A stretch of DNA of 12,051 nucleotides, taken from contig CAMZLP010000027.1 of NCBI GenBank assembly GCA_947311535.1, forward strand, positions 1-12,051, written 5' to 3'. This DNA comes from an uncultured Deinococcota bacterium (GTDB lineage Bacteria; Deinococcota; Deinococci; Deinococcales; Trueperaceae). The position numbers and the translations under genes are program-made. Under the pieces are notes generated by a model. The model made no database searches and was not told the DNA's origin. It worked only from the letters and a program-made list of their open reading frames with translations. This document shows, piece by piece, positions 439 through 10,385 of this stretch; position 1 is the first letter of the stretch; every line of letters starts with the position of its first letter.

Positions 439-1328
439 ACTCGCCCCCCGAGTTTTTCAGCAATTCTTAATTTTGCACTTCTGGCTCTGGGGTTTTGCTG
501 AATTTCCTCAGAGCTCGCTGTAAGTGGTTTTTTAGTGATTATTTTTAATTCTTTATCATCTTTAATAAAGTGTTTTACAATTCTATCTTCTAAGGAATGA
601 TAGCTAATAACAACAAGTTTCCCATTCTTATCAAGTAGTCTACTTGCTGCCTCTAAAGCATCTTCTAAAGCCCTTAGCTCATCATTGACATATATCCTTA
701 GCGCCTGAAAAGTCTGCCTAGCAGGGTGTTTTTTACGGTATTTACCCTTAGGATAAGCACTAACAATTATCTCAGATAATTGAGATGTGGTTTTAATAAT
801 AGTTTCTTGGCGAGCAACTACAATAGCTTTGGCAATACGTCTACTCAAGCGTTCTTCGCCATATCTATATATAAGAGCCGCAAGCTTTTCTTCTGCTAAA
901 TTATTAATTATCTCTTCTGCTGATTGGGCTTCACTGCCCATACGCATATCCAAAGGGCCATCTTGTCTAAATGCAAAACCTCGCTCTGCTTGGTCTAATT
1001 GCATTGAAGAAACCCCAAGATCAAATAAAATACCATCGATTTGATTAAAATCTAATTCTTTAGCAGTTTTTATGAGTCCACGAAAATTTGTAATGCTAAG
1101 CCAGAAATTTTGATTTTGTTCTTTTGAGAGAGTAGTTCTTAATTCTTTTTCATATTTTATTACAGTTGCATCTTGGTCTATTGAGAGTAGCTTTAGATTA
1201 TGCTCGAGCATGGCCCTAGTGTGTCCACCAGCACCAAAGGTGGCATCTATATATTTACCGCCTGTTTTTAAATCTAGAGCGGCTAGTGACTCTTTTAACA
1301 TAACTGCTTCATGGCTATGAGTACTCAT
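435..1328 (-). CDS. rsmH: 16S rRNA (cytosine1402-N4)-methyltransferase RsmH (MraW)
   Basis: 297 aa. The N-terminus has the SAM-binding motif DATFGAGGHT characteristic of RsmH. Length and the position between mraZ and ftsL fit. Overlaps mraZ by 4 nt. Confidence 0.92.
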   Translation of the reverse strand: MSTHSHEAVMLKESLAALDLKTGGKYIDATFGAGGHTRAMLEHNLKLLSIDQDATVIKYEKELRTTLSKEQNQNFWLSITNFRGLIKTAKELDFNQIDGILFDLGVSSMQLDQAERGFAFRQDGPLDMRMGSEAQSAEEIINNLAEEKLAALIYRYGEERLSRRIAKAIVVARQETIIKTTSQLSEIIVSAYPKGKYRKKHPARQTFQALRIYVNDELRALEDALEAASRLLDKNGKLVVISYHSLEDRIVKHFIKDDKELKIITKKPLTASSEEIQQNPRARSAKLRIAEKLGGRV

Positions 1329-1762
1329 CCTATTAGCTCCTGTAATATTTCAGGGGCAGGACTTGACATTAAGATTTCATCTAAATTAGTCTTCCAACGC
1401 GCATCATTCCAGAGCTCCAGACGATTGGGAGCTCCAGCAATTATTACAGTTTTTTCAGTTTCACTAATTCCAGCAAAAGATCTTAGGGTTGCCGGAATAT
1501 TAATACGCCCAGCCGAATCAGTATTTGCCTTAGAAGCACCTGAGTAAAAGAAGCGGACAAAATTCCTGGATTCAGCATTAATTATTGGTAAATTTCCTAA
1601 ATACTCTTCCACACGTCTCCAATTTGCCAAGGGGAAGATATATAAACAACCTTCTAATCCACGGGTTACTACCATTCCATCAGTTACAAAATCCCTAAAC
1701 GAAGGAGGAATAATAACTCGTCCTTTATCATCAACAGAATATTGGTATTCACCAAATGGCAT
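1325..1762 (-). CDS. mraZ: Division/cell wall cluster transcriptional regulator MraZ
   Basis: 145 aa. Two tandem MraZ/SpoVT-AbrB halves, each with a DxxxR motif (DDKGRVIIP and DSAGRINIP). Typical MraZ length. Followed by rsmH. Confidence 0.9.
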   Translation of the reverse strand: MPFGEYQYSVDDKGRVIIPPSFRDFVTDGMVVTRGLEGCLYIFPLANWRRVEEYLGNLPIINAESRNFVRFFYSGASKANTDSAGRINIPATLRSFAGISETEKTVIIAGAPNRLELWNDARWKTNLDEILMSSPAPEILQELIG

Positions 1763-1991
1763 TGTAAACCCGTCCTGCGTTAAACTTAGGGCCTATCGTG
1801 GCATCTAGAGGAACTGTGAATTTTACTATAGTAATAAGCGCAGGAGAGTTAAAAAAACTCAAACCCCCTAAATATTTCGTCACTATCACGATATAATGCA
1901 AATGATTTTCCATCCTAGATTTATTTAGCTAGCTCCATCCCAAAAGCCCTATCTTGAGGAAGTTTTTAGAGAAATTAGAGAGTTGATAGCA

Positions 1992-2104
1992 TCTCCCACA
2001 AGATAGTTAATACTAACACAAATATCCCACAAAGTTCCACTATCTCCCACTATTTAATTATTTTTCGTGAAAGATAACAATATTCTCCCACAATAAACCC
2101 ACCT
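1992..2104 (-). promoter_or_regulatory. Array of five phased CCCAC boxes (GTGGG on the mraZ coding strand); candidate MraZ operator or other oligomeric-regulator site
   Basis: CCCAC cores at 1995, 2026, 2046, 2087 and 2098 sit within larger repeats TCTCCCACAA, TATCCCACAA, TCTCCCACTA, TCTCCCACAA and AACCCACCT. The spacings are 31, 20, 41 and 11 bp, all near multiples of a helical turn. MraZ is known to bind direct repeats containing TGGGN/GTGGG at about 10 bp periodicity. The array is 230-340 bp upstream of the mraZ start, which is farther than is typical. Confidence 0.35.
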
Positions 2105-2837
2105 ACACTTAATAAATTTTGAATCGGTGTTAAAAATATATTGCAATATTGGATATCTAAAAACTGTAATTGCTTTTTTAAAAAATATAATTTCCCTGAC
2201 ATAAGTCCTCTCTTAGACCTTTCCCCTGCGTAATTACTAGTGATTTCTTTAGTTTTAATAGCCTTACTACTCTCCCTTCTGATATTACTAGCTTAGAGCT
2301 AGCATAGCCTGAAGCTAAATTATGCTATTGGCGAATAGCTTATAATCATATCTAACAAATCCCATTATGTGAATATTCTTACATTTAGCTGCTTCAATAA
2401 GAAGACTTCTTTTTGAAGCTGTGTTTGCTAGCTATTTATTACAAAAATACCGAGATTAAAGTTCAAAACCAAATGATTGAGAGTGTCGAGAGAGTTGTAA
2501 GAATTAAAGAGCTTGATTTTTATCAGAAGAGAATTATAGGCTATAAGTAACCTAAGTTCGGAATTAAATAAATCAATATATTATCTCTCTTTATTTCTAT
2601 TTTTAATTTAATTTTCTTTATTAAATTGGAGTTTTCTCATCTTAGACGCTATTCTATCTCCGAGCTCAGGTTATAAGTAGTATTTTTACTAAACATGAGC
2701 TTAATTTGATAGAAGCTAAGGGGAATAGGATTCAAGAATTTAAACTAAGAATTAAATAGTTAGAATATGTCGTGAAAATGCGCAAGTCAAGAATATTTTA
2801 AAGAAAAACCACTTTCGCTTTAGGCATTATGAAAATT

Positions 2838-2877
2838 AAAAAAATAAAAAAGCAGAATGTGGCTTGCCACATTCTGC
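2838..2877 (-). terminator. Rho-independent terminator of rnpB
   Basis: On the minus strand: GCAGAAUGUGG-CAAG-CCACAUUCUGC, a perfect 11 bp stem (plus 2852-2877), followed by UUUUUUAUUUUUUU (plus 2838-2851). Confidence 0.75.
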
Positions 2878-3218
2878 GCAGGAGGGCTATAAGCCGGATT
2901 CTGTACTCTTACGAGCTCTAACCATCTTTCTGAGATAATTGTCACCAATTACCTTATGCGGTCATCCCGGAGATTTTAACGAGTCGGGCAAACTCTCTCT
3001 CCCTATCGGACCTTGCACCGAGTGGGGTTTACCTAGCTAGCTTTGTTTCCAAAGCTACTGTTGTGCTCTTACCACAACGTTTCACCCTTACCAAATTATT
3101 GGCGGTTTACTTTCTGTTGCACTTGCCGTCGTCTTACACGCCCAGCCGTTAGCTGGCACCCTGCCCTTTGGAGTCCGGACTTTCCTCAGCTTTCGCCGCG
3201 ATTAGACACCCTCACCAG
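2878..3218 (-). ncRNA. rnpB: RNase P RNA, bacterial type A (reduced form)
   Basis: The reverse complement contains the universally conserved tracts AGGAAAGUCCGGACUCCAAAGGGCAGGGUGCCAGCUAACGGCUGGG, CAAGUGCAACAGAAAGUAAACCGCC, GGUAAGGGUGAAA, GGUAAACCCCACUCGGUGCAAGGUCCGAUAGGG and ACAGAAUCCGGCUUAU (P4 3' strand), in the canonical order. Ends are approximate (+/-15 nt). The ORF at 3043..3228 in the track is spurious overlap. Confidence 0.88.
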
Positions 3219-8819: not shown

Positions 8820-10385
8820 ATGAGATTACGAACAAGACTTACTGTTTTTACAACGCTATTCTTGGCTGTGGTGCTTACTGCTACAGCCTTGGCTGTTTAT
8901 GCTTTTACTGAGCGCTCGCTGCTAAAAACTAGTGAAACACGTTTAGAAGAATTTATGGAGAATGTGCTCGAGCAGCCCTTTAGTAGAGATAGTATTAGCT
9001 CCTTACCCAATGACTCATATTTCTTAGTTAAGTTGTTCCTTTTTGATATTGAAAAACCGACTGATATTAGAACAGGCTCTAGTTTTCGCTCAGGTGAATA
9101 TACCTTTAATGCCTTAAAATATCAGCTTCTTCCCAAAGACACTAGAATTGATCCAGGTCAATTTGATAACTTGGTTGATGTAAATGATATTACGAGAAAA
9201 ATAACCTATCATTTTAACCCTGACTCTGATGATTTGTTTAATAGACTTAGTGAAAATGATTTAAATATTTTGTTTAATACGGGGTTTTTAAACACTCGTA
9301 TTACAAATACTAGGGGGAAAGTTTACTTGGCTTCTATTAAAAAGGAGACCTTTGTAAATGGTAATAGTCAGTTGTTTTTAGAACTCCCTAGTTATACATT
9401 AATAGCACTTCCTTTTCCACAAGAGGTTTTAAATAGACTTAGATTTTTGCTTTTTGCAACCGTAATTATTGCTTTTATTGCTTTTGCAATTGGAGTCTAT
9501 TTACTTGCTGCAATAGTGCTAACCCCAGTTAGAAATATGACCCAAGCAGCAGGGCAAATTGGTGGCCAGGATTTATCCCTGCGAGTTCCTGTGCCAAAAT
9601 CTGGGGGAGAGCTAAGCGACTTGGCAATTACCATAAACGGTATGCTTGAGAGGTTACAAGAGTCTTTTGAGACTCAGCAACGGTTTACCGGCTATGCCTC
9701 ACATGAACTAAGAACACCAGTTACAGTAATAGCAGGACACGCTAACTATTTATTGCGTAGAACTAAGCCATCAGATGACCAAGTTGATTCTTTGACTATA
9801 ATTCGTAAAGAGGCAGACCGAATGGCTAAGCTAGTTAATGATTTATTAGAATTGGCTCGAGCCGATGCTGGTTTAACCATTAAACGTGAAGCAATGAATT
9901 TGGTAGAGGTCTTAGAAGATATTAAAAAGGAAATTGCCCCAGTTTCAGATGCTGAAATTAGTATTTCTATTAGTGAACCCTTAATAGAAATATCCGGTGA
10001 TGCCAATAGATTAAAGCAAGTTATTTTAAATCTATTACAAAATGCCCTTAATGCAGGCTCAAAATTAGTGACTATTAGCCTAGAAAAAGAAAATGATAAG
10101 ATTCGTTTAGAAATATTTGATAATGGTTCAGGCATTGCCGAAGATGCAATACCTCACCTTTTTGAAAGGTTTTATAGGGTTGATAGCTCCCGCACAAAAA
10201 AAGGTAGTGGTTTGGGTTTAGCCATCGTAAAATGGATTGTATCTCAGCATGGAGGTACGGTTACAGTTGATTCGCGAATTGGAGGAGGTACTGTATTTAC
10301 CGTAATTTTACCTAGTTTAGAGACAAAATCTGGTGAGCAGAATCTTTTGCCCCAAACATTATGGGGAAAGCAAATAAAAAATTAG
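8820..10385 (+). CDS. Sensor histidine kinase (TM - periplasmic domain - TM - HAMP - HisKA - HATPase_c)
   Basis: 521 aa. Two hydrophobic helices (residues about 9-30 and about 205-230) flank a roughly 175 aa extracytoplasmic domain. H-box GYASHELRTPVT. N-box QNALNAG. G-boxes DNGSGI and GSGLGLAIV. 12 nt after the regulator stop, so operonic. Confidence 0.9.
   Translation: MRLRTRLTVFTTLFLAVVLTATALAVYAFTERSLLKTSETRLEEFMENVLEQPFSRDSISSLPNDSYFLVKLFLFDIEKPTDIRTGSSFRSGEYTFNALKYQLLPKDTRIDPGQFDNLVDVNDITRKITYHFNPDSDDLFNRLSENDLNILFNTGFLNTRITNTRGKVYLASIKKETFVNGNSQLFLELPSYTLIALPFPQEVLNRLRFLLFATVIIAFIAFAIGVYLLAAIVLTPVRNMTQAAGQIGGQDLSLRVPVPKSGGELSDLAITINGMLERLQESFETQQRFTGYASHELRTPVTVIAGHANYLLRRTKPSDDQVDSLTIIRKEADRMAKLVNDLLELARADAGLTIKREAMNLVEVLEDIKKEIAPVSDAEISISISEPLIEISGDANRLKQVILNLLQNALNAGSKLVTISLEKENDKIRLEIFDNGSGIAEDAIPHLFERFYRVDSSRTKKGSGLGLAIVKWIVSQHGGTVTVDSRIGGGTVFTVILPSLETKSGEQNLLPQTLWGKQIKN

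What the first reader, a model, noticed from the sequence alone, without database searches (positions are those of the whole stretch)
1992..2104. Five helically phased CCCAC boxes (GTGGG on the mraZ strand) 230-340 bp upstream of mraZ
Read on the mraZ strand the boxes are TTGTGGGAGA, TTGTGGGATA, TAGTGGGAGA, TTGTGGGAGA and AGGTGGG. The last two are 11 bp apart, and all spacings are multiples of about 10.3 bp, so every box faces the same side of the helix. MraZ forms ring oligomers and represses its own operon by binding direct repeats containing TGGGN/GTGGG. This array would be an unusually extended and distant version of that operator. That implies a long 5' leader or a promoter far upstream of mraZ. 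A DnaA-box-like reading (TTATCCACA) fits worse.
Basis: partly seen in the sequence, partly recalled or inferred. Interest (0 to 1): 0.55.

Follow-up and report, generated by a model that had tools for sequence, protein, structure and literature searches.

The report
MraZ operator-promoter array upstream of mraZ
The phased CCCAC/GTGGG boxes are real and are almost certainly the self-regulating binding sites of the cell-division regulator MraZ, sitting on top of the operon's own promoter: a familiar kind of switch in a longer, two-part layout shared by relatives of Thermus and Truepera.

Summary
Five GTGGG lie on the mraZ strand at 1995-2102, spaced 31, 20, 41 and 11 bp. No dinucleotide shuffle out of 2000 gave such a cluster. 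Phasing is tight (R = 0.98 at 10.25 bp).

With them, boxes 3, 3' and 4 form the canonical three-box MraZ core at 10-bp period. It runs straight into a predicted extended -10, TGTGTTAGTAT (2010-2020).

The same layout recurs upstream of mraZ in relatives: one or two distal boxes, a 41-43 bp gap, contiguous 10-bp boxes, then TGnTAnnnT. It occurs from 36% to 72% GC. The triple-box pattern is in 54 of 57 loci and almost nowhere else in 655 kb.

The window's MraZ keeps Lys13, Arg15 and Arg86, which contact GTG(G/T) in the M. genitalium cryo-EM structure.

The distance to mraZ comes from a leader of about 242 nt that carries a clade-specific insertion of about 170 nt. It is not a remote operator.

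No binding or transcription-start data exist. This is a known system in a bipartite variant spanning about ten helical turns. Interest is modest.

The parts
2098..2102 (-). Distal box 1, GTGGG (context AGGTGGGTTT), about -98 to -94 from the predicted TSS
   Evidence: Present in L052 and L053 but absent in L054. A box 11 bp upstream of the main distal box recurs in several Trueperaceae loci.
2087..2091 (-). Distal box 2, GTGGG (TTGTGGGAGA), about -87 to -83. It lies 41 bp (four helical turns) upstream of core box 3.
   Evidence: GTGG is invariant in the window, L052, L053 and L054. A distal GTGGGAG 41-43 bp upstream of the first core box is seen in most Trueperaceae-like loci.
2051..2086 (-). 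Box-free spacer between the distal and core boxes. It is AT-rich and carries no in-phase GTG.
   Evidence: It diverges between the window and L052: the 2051-2104 segment, which holds the distal boxes and this spacer, has 8 substitutions and a 1-nt indel, at 85% identity. Start-to-start distance is held at 41-43 bp across loci.
2046..2050 (-). Core box 3, GTGGG (TAGTGGGAGA), about -46 to -42
   Evidence: Invariant in the four close relatives. It corresponds to the -35 slot relative to the first base of the -10 hexamer in the anchored alignment.
2036..2040 (-). It lies about -36 to -32 and overlaps the weak -35 position.
   Evidence: GTGGAA is invariant in the four close relatives. Thermus loci carry GTGGAAA in the same slot.
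2026..2030 (-). Core box 4, GTGGG (TTGTGGGATA), about -26 to -22, within the promoter spacer
   Evidence: It is GTGGT in L054 and lost in L053. It corresponds to the -15 slot in the anchored alignment.
2010..2020 (-). Predicted extended -10 promoter element, TGTGTTAGTAT (TGn plus -10 hexamer TAGTAT at 2015-2010). Its GTGTT (2019-2015) is a fourth contiguous in-phase GTG(G/T) unit.
   Evidence: TGnTAnnnT is found directly after the boxes and in phase in 55 of 56 loci. TANNNT is the validated -10 motif of Deinococcus-Thermus (PMC12340547). TGTGnTA is invariant in the four close relatives. The TSS itself is inferred, not measured.
1995..1999 (-). Box 5, GTGGG (TTGTGGGAGA), about +6 to +10, just downstream of the predicted TSS (about 2004)
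   Evidence: TTGTGGGA is invariant in the window, L052, L053 and L054. It has decayed to TTGATGGAGA in L057, and most Trueperaceae and Thermus loci lack it.
1959..2055 (-). Longest perfectly conserved block between the window and its 92-96%-identical relative L052. It covers the core boxes, the extended -10, box 5 and the first 45 nt or so of the leader.
   Evidence: a 97-nt identical run, the longest in the 1.1-kb intergenic alignment, which is 92% identical overall.
1763..2004 (-). Predicted 5' leader of mraZ, about 242 nt
   Evidence: Inferred from the position of the conserved extended -10. Relatives outside the window clade have the -10 hexamer only 54-143 bp upstream of the start codon.
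1763..1929 (-). Clade-specific leader insertion of about 170 nt, between the ancestral Shine-Dalgarno block TTTTGGGATGGAGCTA (1930-1945) and the mraZ ATG
   Evidence: Alignment with L057, L055 and L056. It is present only in the window, L052, L053 and L054. It has no Rfam match and no excess folding energy.
1325..1762 (-). mraZ, the presumed cognate regulator, followed by rsmH (435-1328) and an ftsL-like ORF (100-438)
   Evidence: Pfam MraZ E = 7.7e-32 and MraW methylase E = 6e-99. K13, R15 and R86 are conserved against the M. genitalium MraZ structures 9qlr and 9qlg.

Best explanation
The array is the autoregulatory operator of MraZ, laid over the promoter of the mraZ-rsmH-ftsL (dcw) operon.

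Layout, read on the mraZ strand:
- three contiguous boxes at 10-bp period, GTGGG-GTGGA-GTGGG (2050-2026), over the -46 to -22 region;
- a fourth in-phase unit, GTGTT, which is part of the extended -10 TGTGTTAGTAT (2020-2010);
- a predicted start of transcription near 2004, giving a leader of about 242 nt;
- two distal boxes four and five helical turns upstream (2091, 2102) and one box two turns downstream of the -10 unit (1999), all on the same face of the helix.

Inferred mechanism. When MraZ accumulates, neighbouring subunits of the oligomer insert their K13/R15/R86 'cradles' into successive major grooves of the core boxes. This blocks access of RNA polymerase to the -35 region, spacer and -10, and so represses the operon. 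The distal and downstream boxes are inferred to give cooperative extra contacts to further subunits of the same oligomer or fibre, sharpening the response.

Shown here: the motif, its phasing, its conservation and specificity, and the conserved contact residues.

Inferred: the TSS, binding, the direction of regulation and the role of the outlying boxes.
For: 1. Clustering and phasing are far beyond chance.
2. Motif and 10-bp period match the experimentally defined MraZ boxes: M. genitalium GTG(G/T) with 6-nt spacers, cryo-EM, EMSA and reporter assays; B. subtilis 3 x GTGG[A/T]G required for repression; B. cenocepacia four repeats bound in EMSA. The three E. coli boxes, read directly, are nearly the same words.
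3. Pairwise GTGG distances upstream of mraZ in 56 non-redundant Deinococcota-like loci peak at 10-11, 20-22, 31-32, 41-43, 51-53 and 61-63 bp. The antisense strand shows nothing of the kind.
4. Anchoring on TGnTAnnnT (55 of 56 loci) puts boxes at -35, -25, -15 and -4 from the first base of the -10 hexamer, and distal boxes at -76 and -87, exactly as in the window. TANNNT is the validated -10 motif in this phylum.
5. The triple-box pattern occurs upstream of mraZ in 54 of 57 loci and only twice elsewhere in 655 kb counting both strands.
6. The architecture survives a shift from 72% to 36% GC.
7. Against the close relative L052, the core, the -10 and box 5 lie in the longest identical run (97 nt) of a 92%-identical intergenic region.
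8. The window's MraZ retains K13, R15 and R86.
Against: - There are no experimental data for this lineage: no TSS, no footprint, no expression data.
- The -35 is weak (TGGAAC or GGAACT), so the promoter call rests on the conserved extended -10 alone. The simple sigma-70 scan did not list it.
- Box 1 and box 4 are not invariant even among close relatives.
- Box 5 is restricted mostly to the window clade. It could be conserved for an RNA 5' hairpin, as in the MFE fold, rather than for protein binding.
- Only 12 kb of this genome could be scanned, so genome-wide uniqueness is untested.
- A promoter-like site closer to mraZ (1852-1825, TTAACT-16-TATAGT) could bypass the operator.
Confidence: 0.8

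Rival explanations
1. The same MraZ sites, but MraZ activates rather than represses. With boxes upstream of the -10 and a poor -35, box-bound MraZ would recruit RNA polymerase in the manner of a class II activator.
For: The boxes lie upstream of and over the -35 position, not downstream of the -10 as in E. coli and B. cenocepacia. The -35 hexamer is weak. From memory, Fisunov et al. 2016 reported up-regulation of dcw genes on MraZ overproduction in M. gallisepticum; one search reports increased FtsZ levels in that study.
Against: Repression was shown experimentally in E. coli, B. subtilis and M. genitalium. In B. subtilis the repeats also overlap the -35/-10 region. In the window a box sits in the promoter spacer and another is fused to the extended -10, positions where a bound protein normally excludes sigma. 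Extended -10 promoters do not need a -35 or an activator.
Confidence: 0.12
2. Only the contiguous core (boxes 3, 3', 4 and GTGTT) is the operator. The outlying boxes 1, 2 and 5 are not MraZ sites. Boxes 1 and 2 would be a remnant, a duplicated half-operator or a site for another factor. Box 5 would be conserved as part of a 5'-terminal RNA hairpin of the leader.
For: Model-organism operators have only 3-4 contiguous boxes. Box 1 is missing in L054, and box 5 is missing in most loci outside the window clade. The MFE fold pairs CUAUCUUG.UGGGAG with CUUCC.UCAAGAUAG at the very 5' end of the predicted leader, and TCTTG/CAAGA are conserved in L053 and L054.
Against: A distal GTGGGAG held at 41-43 bp, an integral number of helical turns, from the first core box recurs across most Trueperaceae-like loci although the spacer sequence itself is not conserved. 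Distance peaks persist out to 61-63 bp. In vitro, M. genitalium MraZ still binds boxes separated by a longer spacer, and this depends on oligomerisation. No covariation supports the hairpin, and the leader folds no better than shuffles (z = -0.02).
Confidence: 0.2
3. The promoter lies in the 41-bp spacer (TTGTTA-17-TTAAAT, about 2079-2051). Boxes 3 to 5 would then act downstream of the start site as a roadblock, as in E. coli.
For: The hexamers can be read in the window, and a version of them in L052 (TTGTTA-18-TAAAAT). The E. coli and B. cenocepacia boxes lie just downstream of the -10.
Against: The spacer is the least conserved part of the array between the window and L052. The high-GC relatives have no TAnnnT in the equivalent spacer, whereas TGnTAnnnT after the core is present in 55 of 56 loci. 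In 30%-GC DNA such hexamers are expected by chance: the scan finds as many promoter-like sites in shuffles.
Confidence: 0.08
4. The array is not an MraZ site at all. It would be a DnaA-box cluster or origin element, a generic genome-wide repeat, or the operator of some other regulator.
For: CCCAC resembles part of the DnaA box TTATCCACA. Only 12 kb of the genome is available, so genome-wide occurrence cannot be excluded.
Against: No DnaA box with one mismatch or fewer lies anywhere near; the only two in the window are at 9413 and 11002. There is no other GTGGGA in the window. The array is tied to mraZ in 54 of 57 loci across a phylum and is otherwise nearly absent from 655 kb. Strand, period and motif are those of MraZ boxes.
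Confidence: 0.03

Closest known systems
E. coli Pmra MraZ operator (Eraso et al. 2014, cited from memory and; sequence read)
   Same: Direct repeats of GTGGG at an exact 10-bp period on the mraZ strand, upstream of mraZ-rsmH-ftsL. The box words are nearly identical (AGTGGGAAAT / TGTGGGGCAA / AGTGGGAATA against TAGTGGGAGA / TTGTGGGATA). The operon is autoregulated by its first gene.
   Different: E. coli has three contiguous boxes only, placed 8 bp downstream of the -10 and overlapping the TSS, with a 38-nt leader. In the window the contiguous boxes lie upstream of and fused to an extended -10, there are three outlying in-phase boxes spanning about 108 bp, and the leader is about 242 nt.
Bacillus subtilis MraZ binding repeats (bioRxiv 10.1101/2022.02.09.479790)
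   Same: Three GTGG[A/T]G repeats with 4-nt spacers lie in the -35/-10 region of Pmra. They are required for repression by MraZ through R15 and R86, and form the only triple repeat in the genome. This is the closest match in the position of the core relative to the promoter.
   Different: No distal or downstream outlying boxes are described there.
Mycoplasma genitalium four-box MraZ operator with cryo-EM structures (PMC12957436)
   Same: Four contiguous GTG(G/T) boxes with 6-nt spacers, each read by K13, R15 and R86 of one subunit of an opened ring, with the TSS inside a box. If GTGTT counts, the window also has four contiguous units, and its MraZ has the same three residues.
   Different: The box flanks differ (AAAGTG[T/G] in Mollicutes). 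No natural bipartite arrangement was described. Binding across a lengthened spacer was shown only with an artificial probe.
Burkholderia cenocepacia PmraBc (PMC7761207)
   Same: Four 7-nt repeats with 3-nt spacers, bound by MraZ in EMSA. The single dcw promoter lies well upstream, with the TSS 100 bp before mraZ.
   Different: The repeats lie downstream of the -10 and overlap the TSS. The leader is shorter and there are no outlying boxes.
Rhodobacter sphaeroides 268-nt mraZ leader with the sRNA UpsM (PMC5089854)
   Same: An unusually long mraZ 5' leader confined to one clade. The window clade likewise has a leader of about 242 nt with conserved internal blocks.
   Different: UpsM ends at a clear Rho-independent terminator 84 nt before mraZ. 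No terminator, Rfam family or excess structure was found in the window's leader. There is no sequence relationship.

Membership tests
MraZ operator (MraZ boxes / MBRs) of the dcw operon | Lies in the non-coding region directly upstream of mraZ, on the mraZ strand | tested here: met
   All units are on the minus strand, 233-340 bp upstream of the mraZ ATG at 1762, with no convincing gene between them: only short, non-conserved ORFs of 54 aa or fewer.
MraZ operator (MraZ boxes / MBRs) of the dcw operon | At least three contiguous direct repeats with a GTG(G/T)/TGGGN core at a period of about 10 bp | tested here: met
   GTGGG (2050), GTGGA (2040), GTGGG (2030) and GTGTT (2019) start 10, 10 and 11 bp apart. 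The definition comes, and the E. coli sequence.
MraZ operator (MraZ boxes / MBRs) of the dcw operon | Overlaps the promoter or TSS of the operon | tested here: inconclusive
   A conserved TGnTAnnnT follows the boxes in phase in 55 of 56 relatives and in the window (2010-2020), and TANNNT is the -10 motif of the phylum. No TSS data exist, and the simple sigma-70 scan did not call the site.
MraZ operator (MraZ boxes / MBRs) of the dcw operon | The cognate MraZ carries the DNA-contacting residues (K13, R15, R86; two DXXXR motifs) | tested here: met
   The protein reads VDDKGRV (K13, R15) and TDSAGRI (R86). It aligns to the M. genitalium MraZ structures at E = 1e-14.
MraZ operator (MraZ boxes / MBRs) of the dcw operon | Conserved in orthologous position in related genomes | tested here: met
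   Found in 54 of 57 loci. The same slots recur relative to the -10, and phased distances extend to six turns. The core is 100% identical in the close relative L052.
MraZ operator (MraZ boxes / MBRs) of the dcw operon | The triple repeat is unique or nearly unique in the genome | tested here: inconclusive
   There is no second array in the 12-kb window and only 2 off-target triple boxes in 655 kb of related loci. The rest of this genome is not available.
MraZ operator (MraZ boxes / MBRs) of the dcw operon | Bound by MraZ, with an effect on transcription | not testable with these tools
   This needs EMSA or footprinting and reporter assays.
DnaA-box cluster / replication origin | Several matches to TTATCCACA (one mismatch or fewer) in an AT-rich intergenic region, usually beside dnaA, dnaN or hemE | tested here: not met
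   There is no match with one mismatch or fewer within 7 kb of the array. Neighbouring genes are rnpB and mraZ.
5'-UTR-derived sRNA or attenuator of the mraZ leader (UpsM-like) | An intrinsic terminator inside the leader and a structured, conserved RNA | tested here: not met
   There is no terminator-like site between 1763 and 2004, the fold z-score is -0.02, and there is no Rfam hit. Only one compensatory pair is seen in the long-range helix among four sequences.

The most novel reading that the evidence does not exclude
Deinococcota use a bipartite MraZ operator spanning about ten helical turns. One ring- or fibre-forming MraZ oligomer would contact a contiguous core fused to an extended -10, a distal pair held exactly four turns upstream, and (in this low-GC clade) a box at about +6 to +10. 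It would wrap or loop the whole promoter rather than simply sitting on three boxes. In addition, the 170-nt insertion peculiar to this clade would add a second, post-transcriptional layer of control in the mraZ leader: conserved blocks, or a uORF ending at the mraZ start.
Probability: 0.2. Interest if true: 0.5.

Novelty: new variant of a known kind. Interest (0 to 1): 0.3.

Why it matters
MraZ is one of the most widely conserved bacterial transcription factors, and it sits at the head of the cell-division and cell-wall cluster. Its operators have been dissected only in Proteobacteria, Firmicutes, Mollicutes and Corynebacterium, where they are 3-4 contiguous boxes.

The comparison made here shows that a whole phylum keeps extra boxes at fixed integral helical turns from the core, and fuses the last box to an extended -10. 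Thermus, Meiothermus, Trueperaceae and an uncultured low-GC relative are included.

This gives a natural test case for how the ring oligomer seen in crystal and cryo-EM structures engages DNA beyond four boxes. Thermus thermophilus is genetically and structurally tractable for that test.

For annotation, it fixes the likely promoter and the 242-nt leader of the dcw operon in this lineage. It also flags as spurious an 84-aa gene call that overlaps the operator in the related assembly.

It does not change the general picture of MraZ autoregulation.

Tried and rejected
1. A promoter inside the 41-bp spacer (TTGTTA-17-TTAAAT) was my first reading. I rejected it because the spacer is the least conserved part of the array and the high-GC relatives have no -10 there.

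2. DnaA boxes or an origin: no match with one mismatch or fewer nearby.

3. A generic repeat: no other GTGGGA in the window, and the triple box is almost exclusive to the region upstream of mraZ in 57 loci.

4. A protein-coding reading of the region.
- The 84-aa gene called over the array in L052 is broken into 50-aa and 33-aa ORFs in the window by a 1-nt indel.
- The 54-aa ORF at 1749-1913 is open in relatives. However, its amino acids are conserved only where the nucleotides are fully conserved, it has a stop at codon 3 in L053, and window versus L052 shows 5 replacement changes among 7 substitutions.

5. A structured leader RNA, attenuator or UpsM-like sRNA: no terminator, z = -0.02, weak covariation, no Rfam family. 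The only hit was U6atac at E = 0.31, which is noise.

6. A mobile element as the origin of the 170-nt leader insertion: no second copy in the window or in any fetched locus.

7. A conserved element in the 740-bp rnpB-to-array spacer: not conserved in L053 beyond the rnpB terminator.

8. Literature on MraZ operators in Deinococcus-Thermus: none found. The Eraso et al. 2014 paper is not held in the library.

Full report
**Setting**

The left part of the window carries these features on the minus strand:
- an ftsL-like ORF (100-438);
- rsmH (435-1328; MraW methylase, E = 6e-99);
- mraZ (1325-1762; Pfam MraZ, E = 7.7e-32);
- about 1.1 kb without convincing ORFs;
- the RNase P RNA gene (2875-3217; 263.7 bits) with its terminator hairpin (2852-2877).

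The window is about 36% G+C.

**The observation**

GTGGG occurs on the mraZ strand at 1995, 2026, 2046, 2087 and 2098. All four GTGGGA of the window are among them. The other four GTGGG of the window are scattered on the other strand.

No shuffle out of 2000 dinucleotide-preserving shuffles produced five same-strand copies within 110 bp; the maximum was three. The spacings of 11, 41, 20 and 31 bp give R = 0.984 at a period of 10.25 bp, and only 0.14% of random placements match this.

It is incomplete in one respect. Two further in-phase units exist, GTGGA at 2036-2040 and GTGTT at 2015-2019. The series on the mraZ strand is therefore 11, 41, 10, 10, 11, 20. Boxes 3, 3' and 4 are the canonical contiguous triple repeat.

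**Relatives**

The MraZ protein is 55-69% identical to MraZ of most of the Trueperaceae, Thermus, Meiothermus and Calidithermus loci recovered, all with 56-72% G+C. LigA points to the same phylum.

Closer, uncultured relatives were recovered by exact-protein look-ups:
- L052 has an identical MraZ, and its DNA is 91-96% identical.
- L053 and L054 have 83% MraZ identity, at 37-43% G+C.
- L055 and L056 have 70-72% MraZ identity, at 58-66% G+C.
- L057 and L058 have 69% MraZ identity, at about 40% G+C, with the same synteny: ligA, bmp, a gap of the size that holds rnpB in the window, then mraZ.

**Conservation of the array**

Every group has phased GTGG boxes upstream of mraZ. Over 56 non-redundant loci, same-strand GTGG pair distances pile up at 10-11, 20-22, 31-32, 41-43, 51-53 and 61-63 bp. 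The antisense strand shows nothing of the kind.

Anchoring on a TGnTAnnnT element, present directly after the boxes in 55 of 56 loci, puts the boxes at -35, -25, -15 and -4 from the first base of the -10-like hexamer. Distal boxes fall at -76 and -87. These are exactly the window's positions.

Thermus has five contiguous boxes and then cGTGcTATACT. One Trueperaceae group has two boxes, and the third is GTGGTAGAGT, so box and extended -10 are one and the same.

The pattern GTGG-N6/7-GTGG-N6/7-GTG[GT] is found upstream of mraZ in 54 of 57 loci, and only twice elsewhere in 655 kb counting both strands.

Between the window and L052, the longest identical run of the whole intergenic region is 97 nt (2055-1959). 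It spans the core boxes, the extended -10 and box 5. The 41-bp spacer carries substitutions and a 1-nt indel.

Among the four close relatives, boxes 2, 3, 3', the TGTGnTA element and box 5 are invariant. Boxes 1 and 4 are not.

**What it is**

Motif, strand, period and location are those of the experimentally defined MraZ operator:
- M. genitalium has GTG(G/T) boxes with 6-nt spacers, each read by Lys13, Arg15 and Arg86 (cryo-EM, EMSA and reporter assays).
- B. subtilis has three GTGG[A/T]G repeats that are required for repression.
- B. cenocepacia has four repeats bound in EMSA.
- E. coli has three boxes, read directly from MG1655: AGTGGGAAAT TGTGGGGCAA AGTGGGAATA.

The window's MraZ has K13 and R15 (VDDKGRV) and R86 (DSAGRI), and aligns to the solved M. 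genitalium protein.

TANNNT is the validated -10 motif of Deinococcus-Thermus. I therefore read TGTGTTAGTAT (2020-2010) as an extended -10, with a weak -35 under box 3' and a start site near 2004. This last step is inference; no TSS data exist.

**How it most likely works**

MraZ subunits would occupy the contiguous boxes from about -46 to -12 and exclude RNA polymerase, giving negative autoregulation of mraZ-rsmH-ftsL and the genes downstream. The core's position resembles B. subtilis. It differs from E. coli and B. cenocepacia, where the boxes follow the -10.

The outlying boxes lie on the same helical face, at about -98, -87 and +6. The fixed 41-43-bp gap, held despite a non-conserved spacer sequence, argues that they are additional contacts for the same oligomer. 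In vitro, oligomeric MraZ can still bind boxes separated by a longer spacer, while a monomeric mutant cannot. Whether the DNA is wrapped or looped is speculation.

An activator role cannot be excluded, because the boxes are upstream of the -10 and the -35 is weak. It is less likely, because boxes occupy the spacer and the extended -10.

**Why it is so far from mraZ**

In the other loci the -10 hexamer lies 54-143 bp before the start codon. In the window clade it lies 253-272 bp before it.

Alignment with L057, L055 and L056 shows homology from the boxes down to TTTTGGGATGGAGCTA (1945-1930). In L057 this block is the Shine-Dalgarno region, 5 nt before the start codon. In the window, L052, L053 and L054, about 170 nt are inserted between this block and the ATG.

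The insertion has these properties:
- no second copy in any sequence held;
- no Rfam match;
- no terminator;
- no excess folding energy (z = -0.02).

It does contain conserved blocks (AGGATGGAA; AATATyTAsGGGGTTTGAGwTTTTTT). It also contains a reading frame that stays open to, or just past, the mraZ start in all four relatives, but without a coding signature.

So the 'distant operator' is an ordinary promoter-overlapping operator placed ahead of an unusually long leader. The only precedent I found for such a leader is the unrelated 268-nt UpsM leader of Rhodobacter.

**Rivals rejected or down-weighted**

- DnaA boxes: none with one mismatch or fewer nearby.
- Generic repeat: argue against it.
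- Promoter in the 41-bp spacer: not conserved.
- Coding region over the array: the 84-aa call in L052 is frame-broken in the window.

**Novelty and score**

MraZ operators are well known. I found no description of them in Deinococcota.

What is new is the conserved bipartite, multi-turn layout and the fusion of the last box with an extended -10. This makes it a new variant of a known kind, supported by comparative evidence only.

Interest is 0.3. It is useful for MraZ structural and mechanistic work, with Thermus as a model, and for annotation. It would not surprise a specialist.

Noticed in passing
window 1763-1929 (minus strand); L052, L053, L054 equivalents: A clade-specific insertion of about 170 nt lies in the mraZ leader, between the ancestral Shine-Dalgarno block and the ATG. 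It carries strongly conserved blocks (AGGATGGAA; AATATyTAsGGGGTTTGAGwTTTTTT). A reading frame (window 1749-1913, 54 aa) stays open in all four relatives and ends at, or just past, the mraZ start. No coding signature, Rfam match or stable fold was found, so its function is unexplained.
   Followed up: partly
window 2105-2850: An AT-rich (26-32% GC), ORF-free spacer of about 740 bp lies between the rnpB terminator and the operator. Against the 91%-identical relative L052 it has large indels (54 nt and about 114 nt). It is only about 370 bp long and unrelated in sequence in L053. It looks like fast-evolving non-coding DNA or a decayed gene.
   Followed up: partly
window 2875-3217 (minus), terminator 2852-2877: A bacterial class A RNase P RNA gene (263.7 bits) lies directly upstream of the dcw operon, in the same orientation. 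The rnpB-mraZ adjacency is also seen in L053. L057 and L058 have the matching ligA-bmp-gap-mraZ layout.
   Followed up: partly
whole window; L052-L054, L057-L059: The window is about 36% G+C. All named relatives of its MraZ and LigA (Trueperaceae, Thermus, Meiothermus, Deinococcales MAGs) are 56-72% G+C. It appears to come from an uncultured low-GC lineage allied to Trueperaceae/Deinococcales, with no close genome found among the GTDB representatives searched.
   Followed up: partly
L026-L038, L041, L048, L056 (about -17 and -7 from the mraZ start): In Thermus and several other loci, two further GTGGG units 10-11 bp apart lie directly over the ribosome-binding region of mraZ (for example GGGTGGGACCAGGTGGGAAATG). 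They may be only the SD sequence or an additional MraZ site. They are absent from the window.
   Followed up: no
window 1825-1852 (minus strand): A promoter-like site, TTAACT-16-TATAGT, lies about 60 bp upstream of mraZ, inside the leader insertion. A TAnnnT at the same alignment column is kept in L053 and L054. It could be a proximal promoter independent of MraZ.
   Followed up: partly
L052 2080-2334 (= window about 1949-2203): The public gene call of an 84-aa protein in the related assembly overlaps the operator. It is interrupted in the window by a 1-nt indel and is probably a spurious annotation.
   Followed up: yes
L042, L044, L045, L051 (Meiothermus), about -87 from the -10 hexamer: The distal box there is part of an inverted repeat (GTGGGAAACCGGCCCAC), unlike the direct-repeat logic of the rest of the array.
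   Followed up: no
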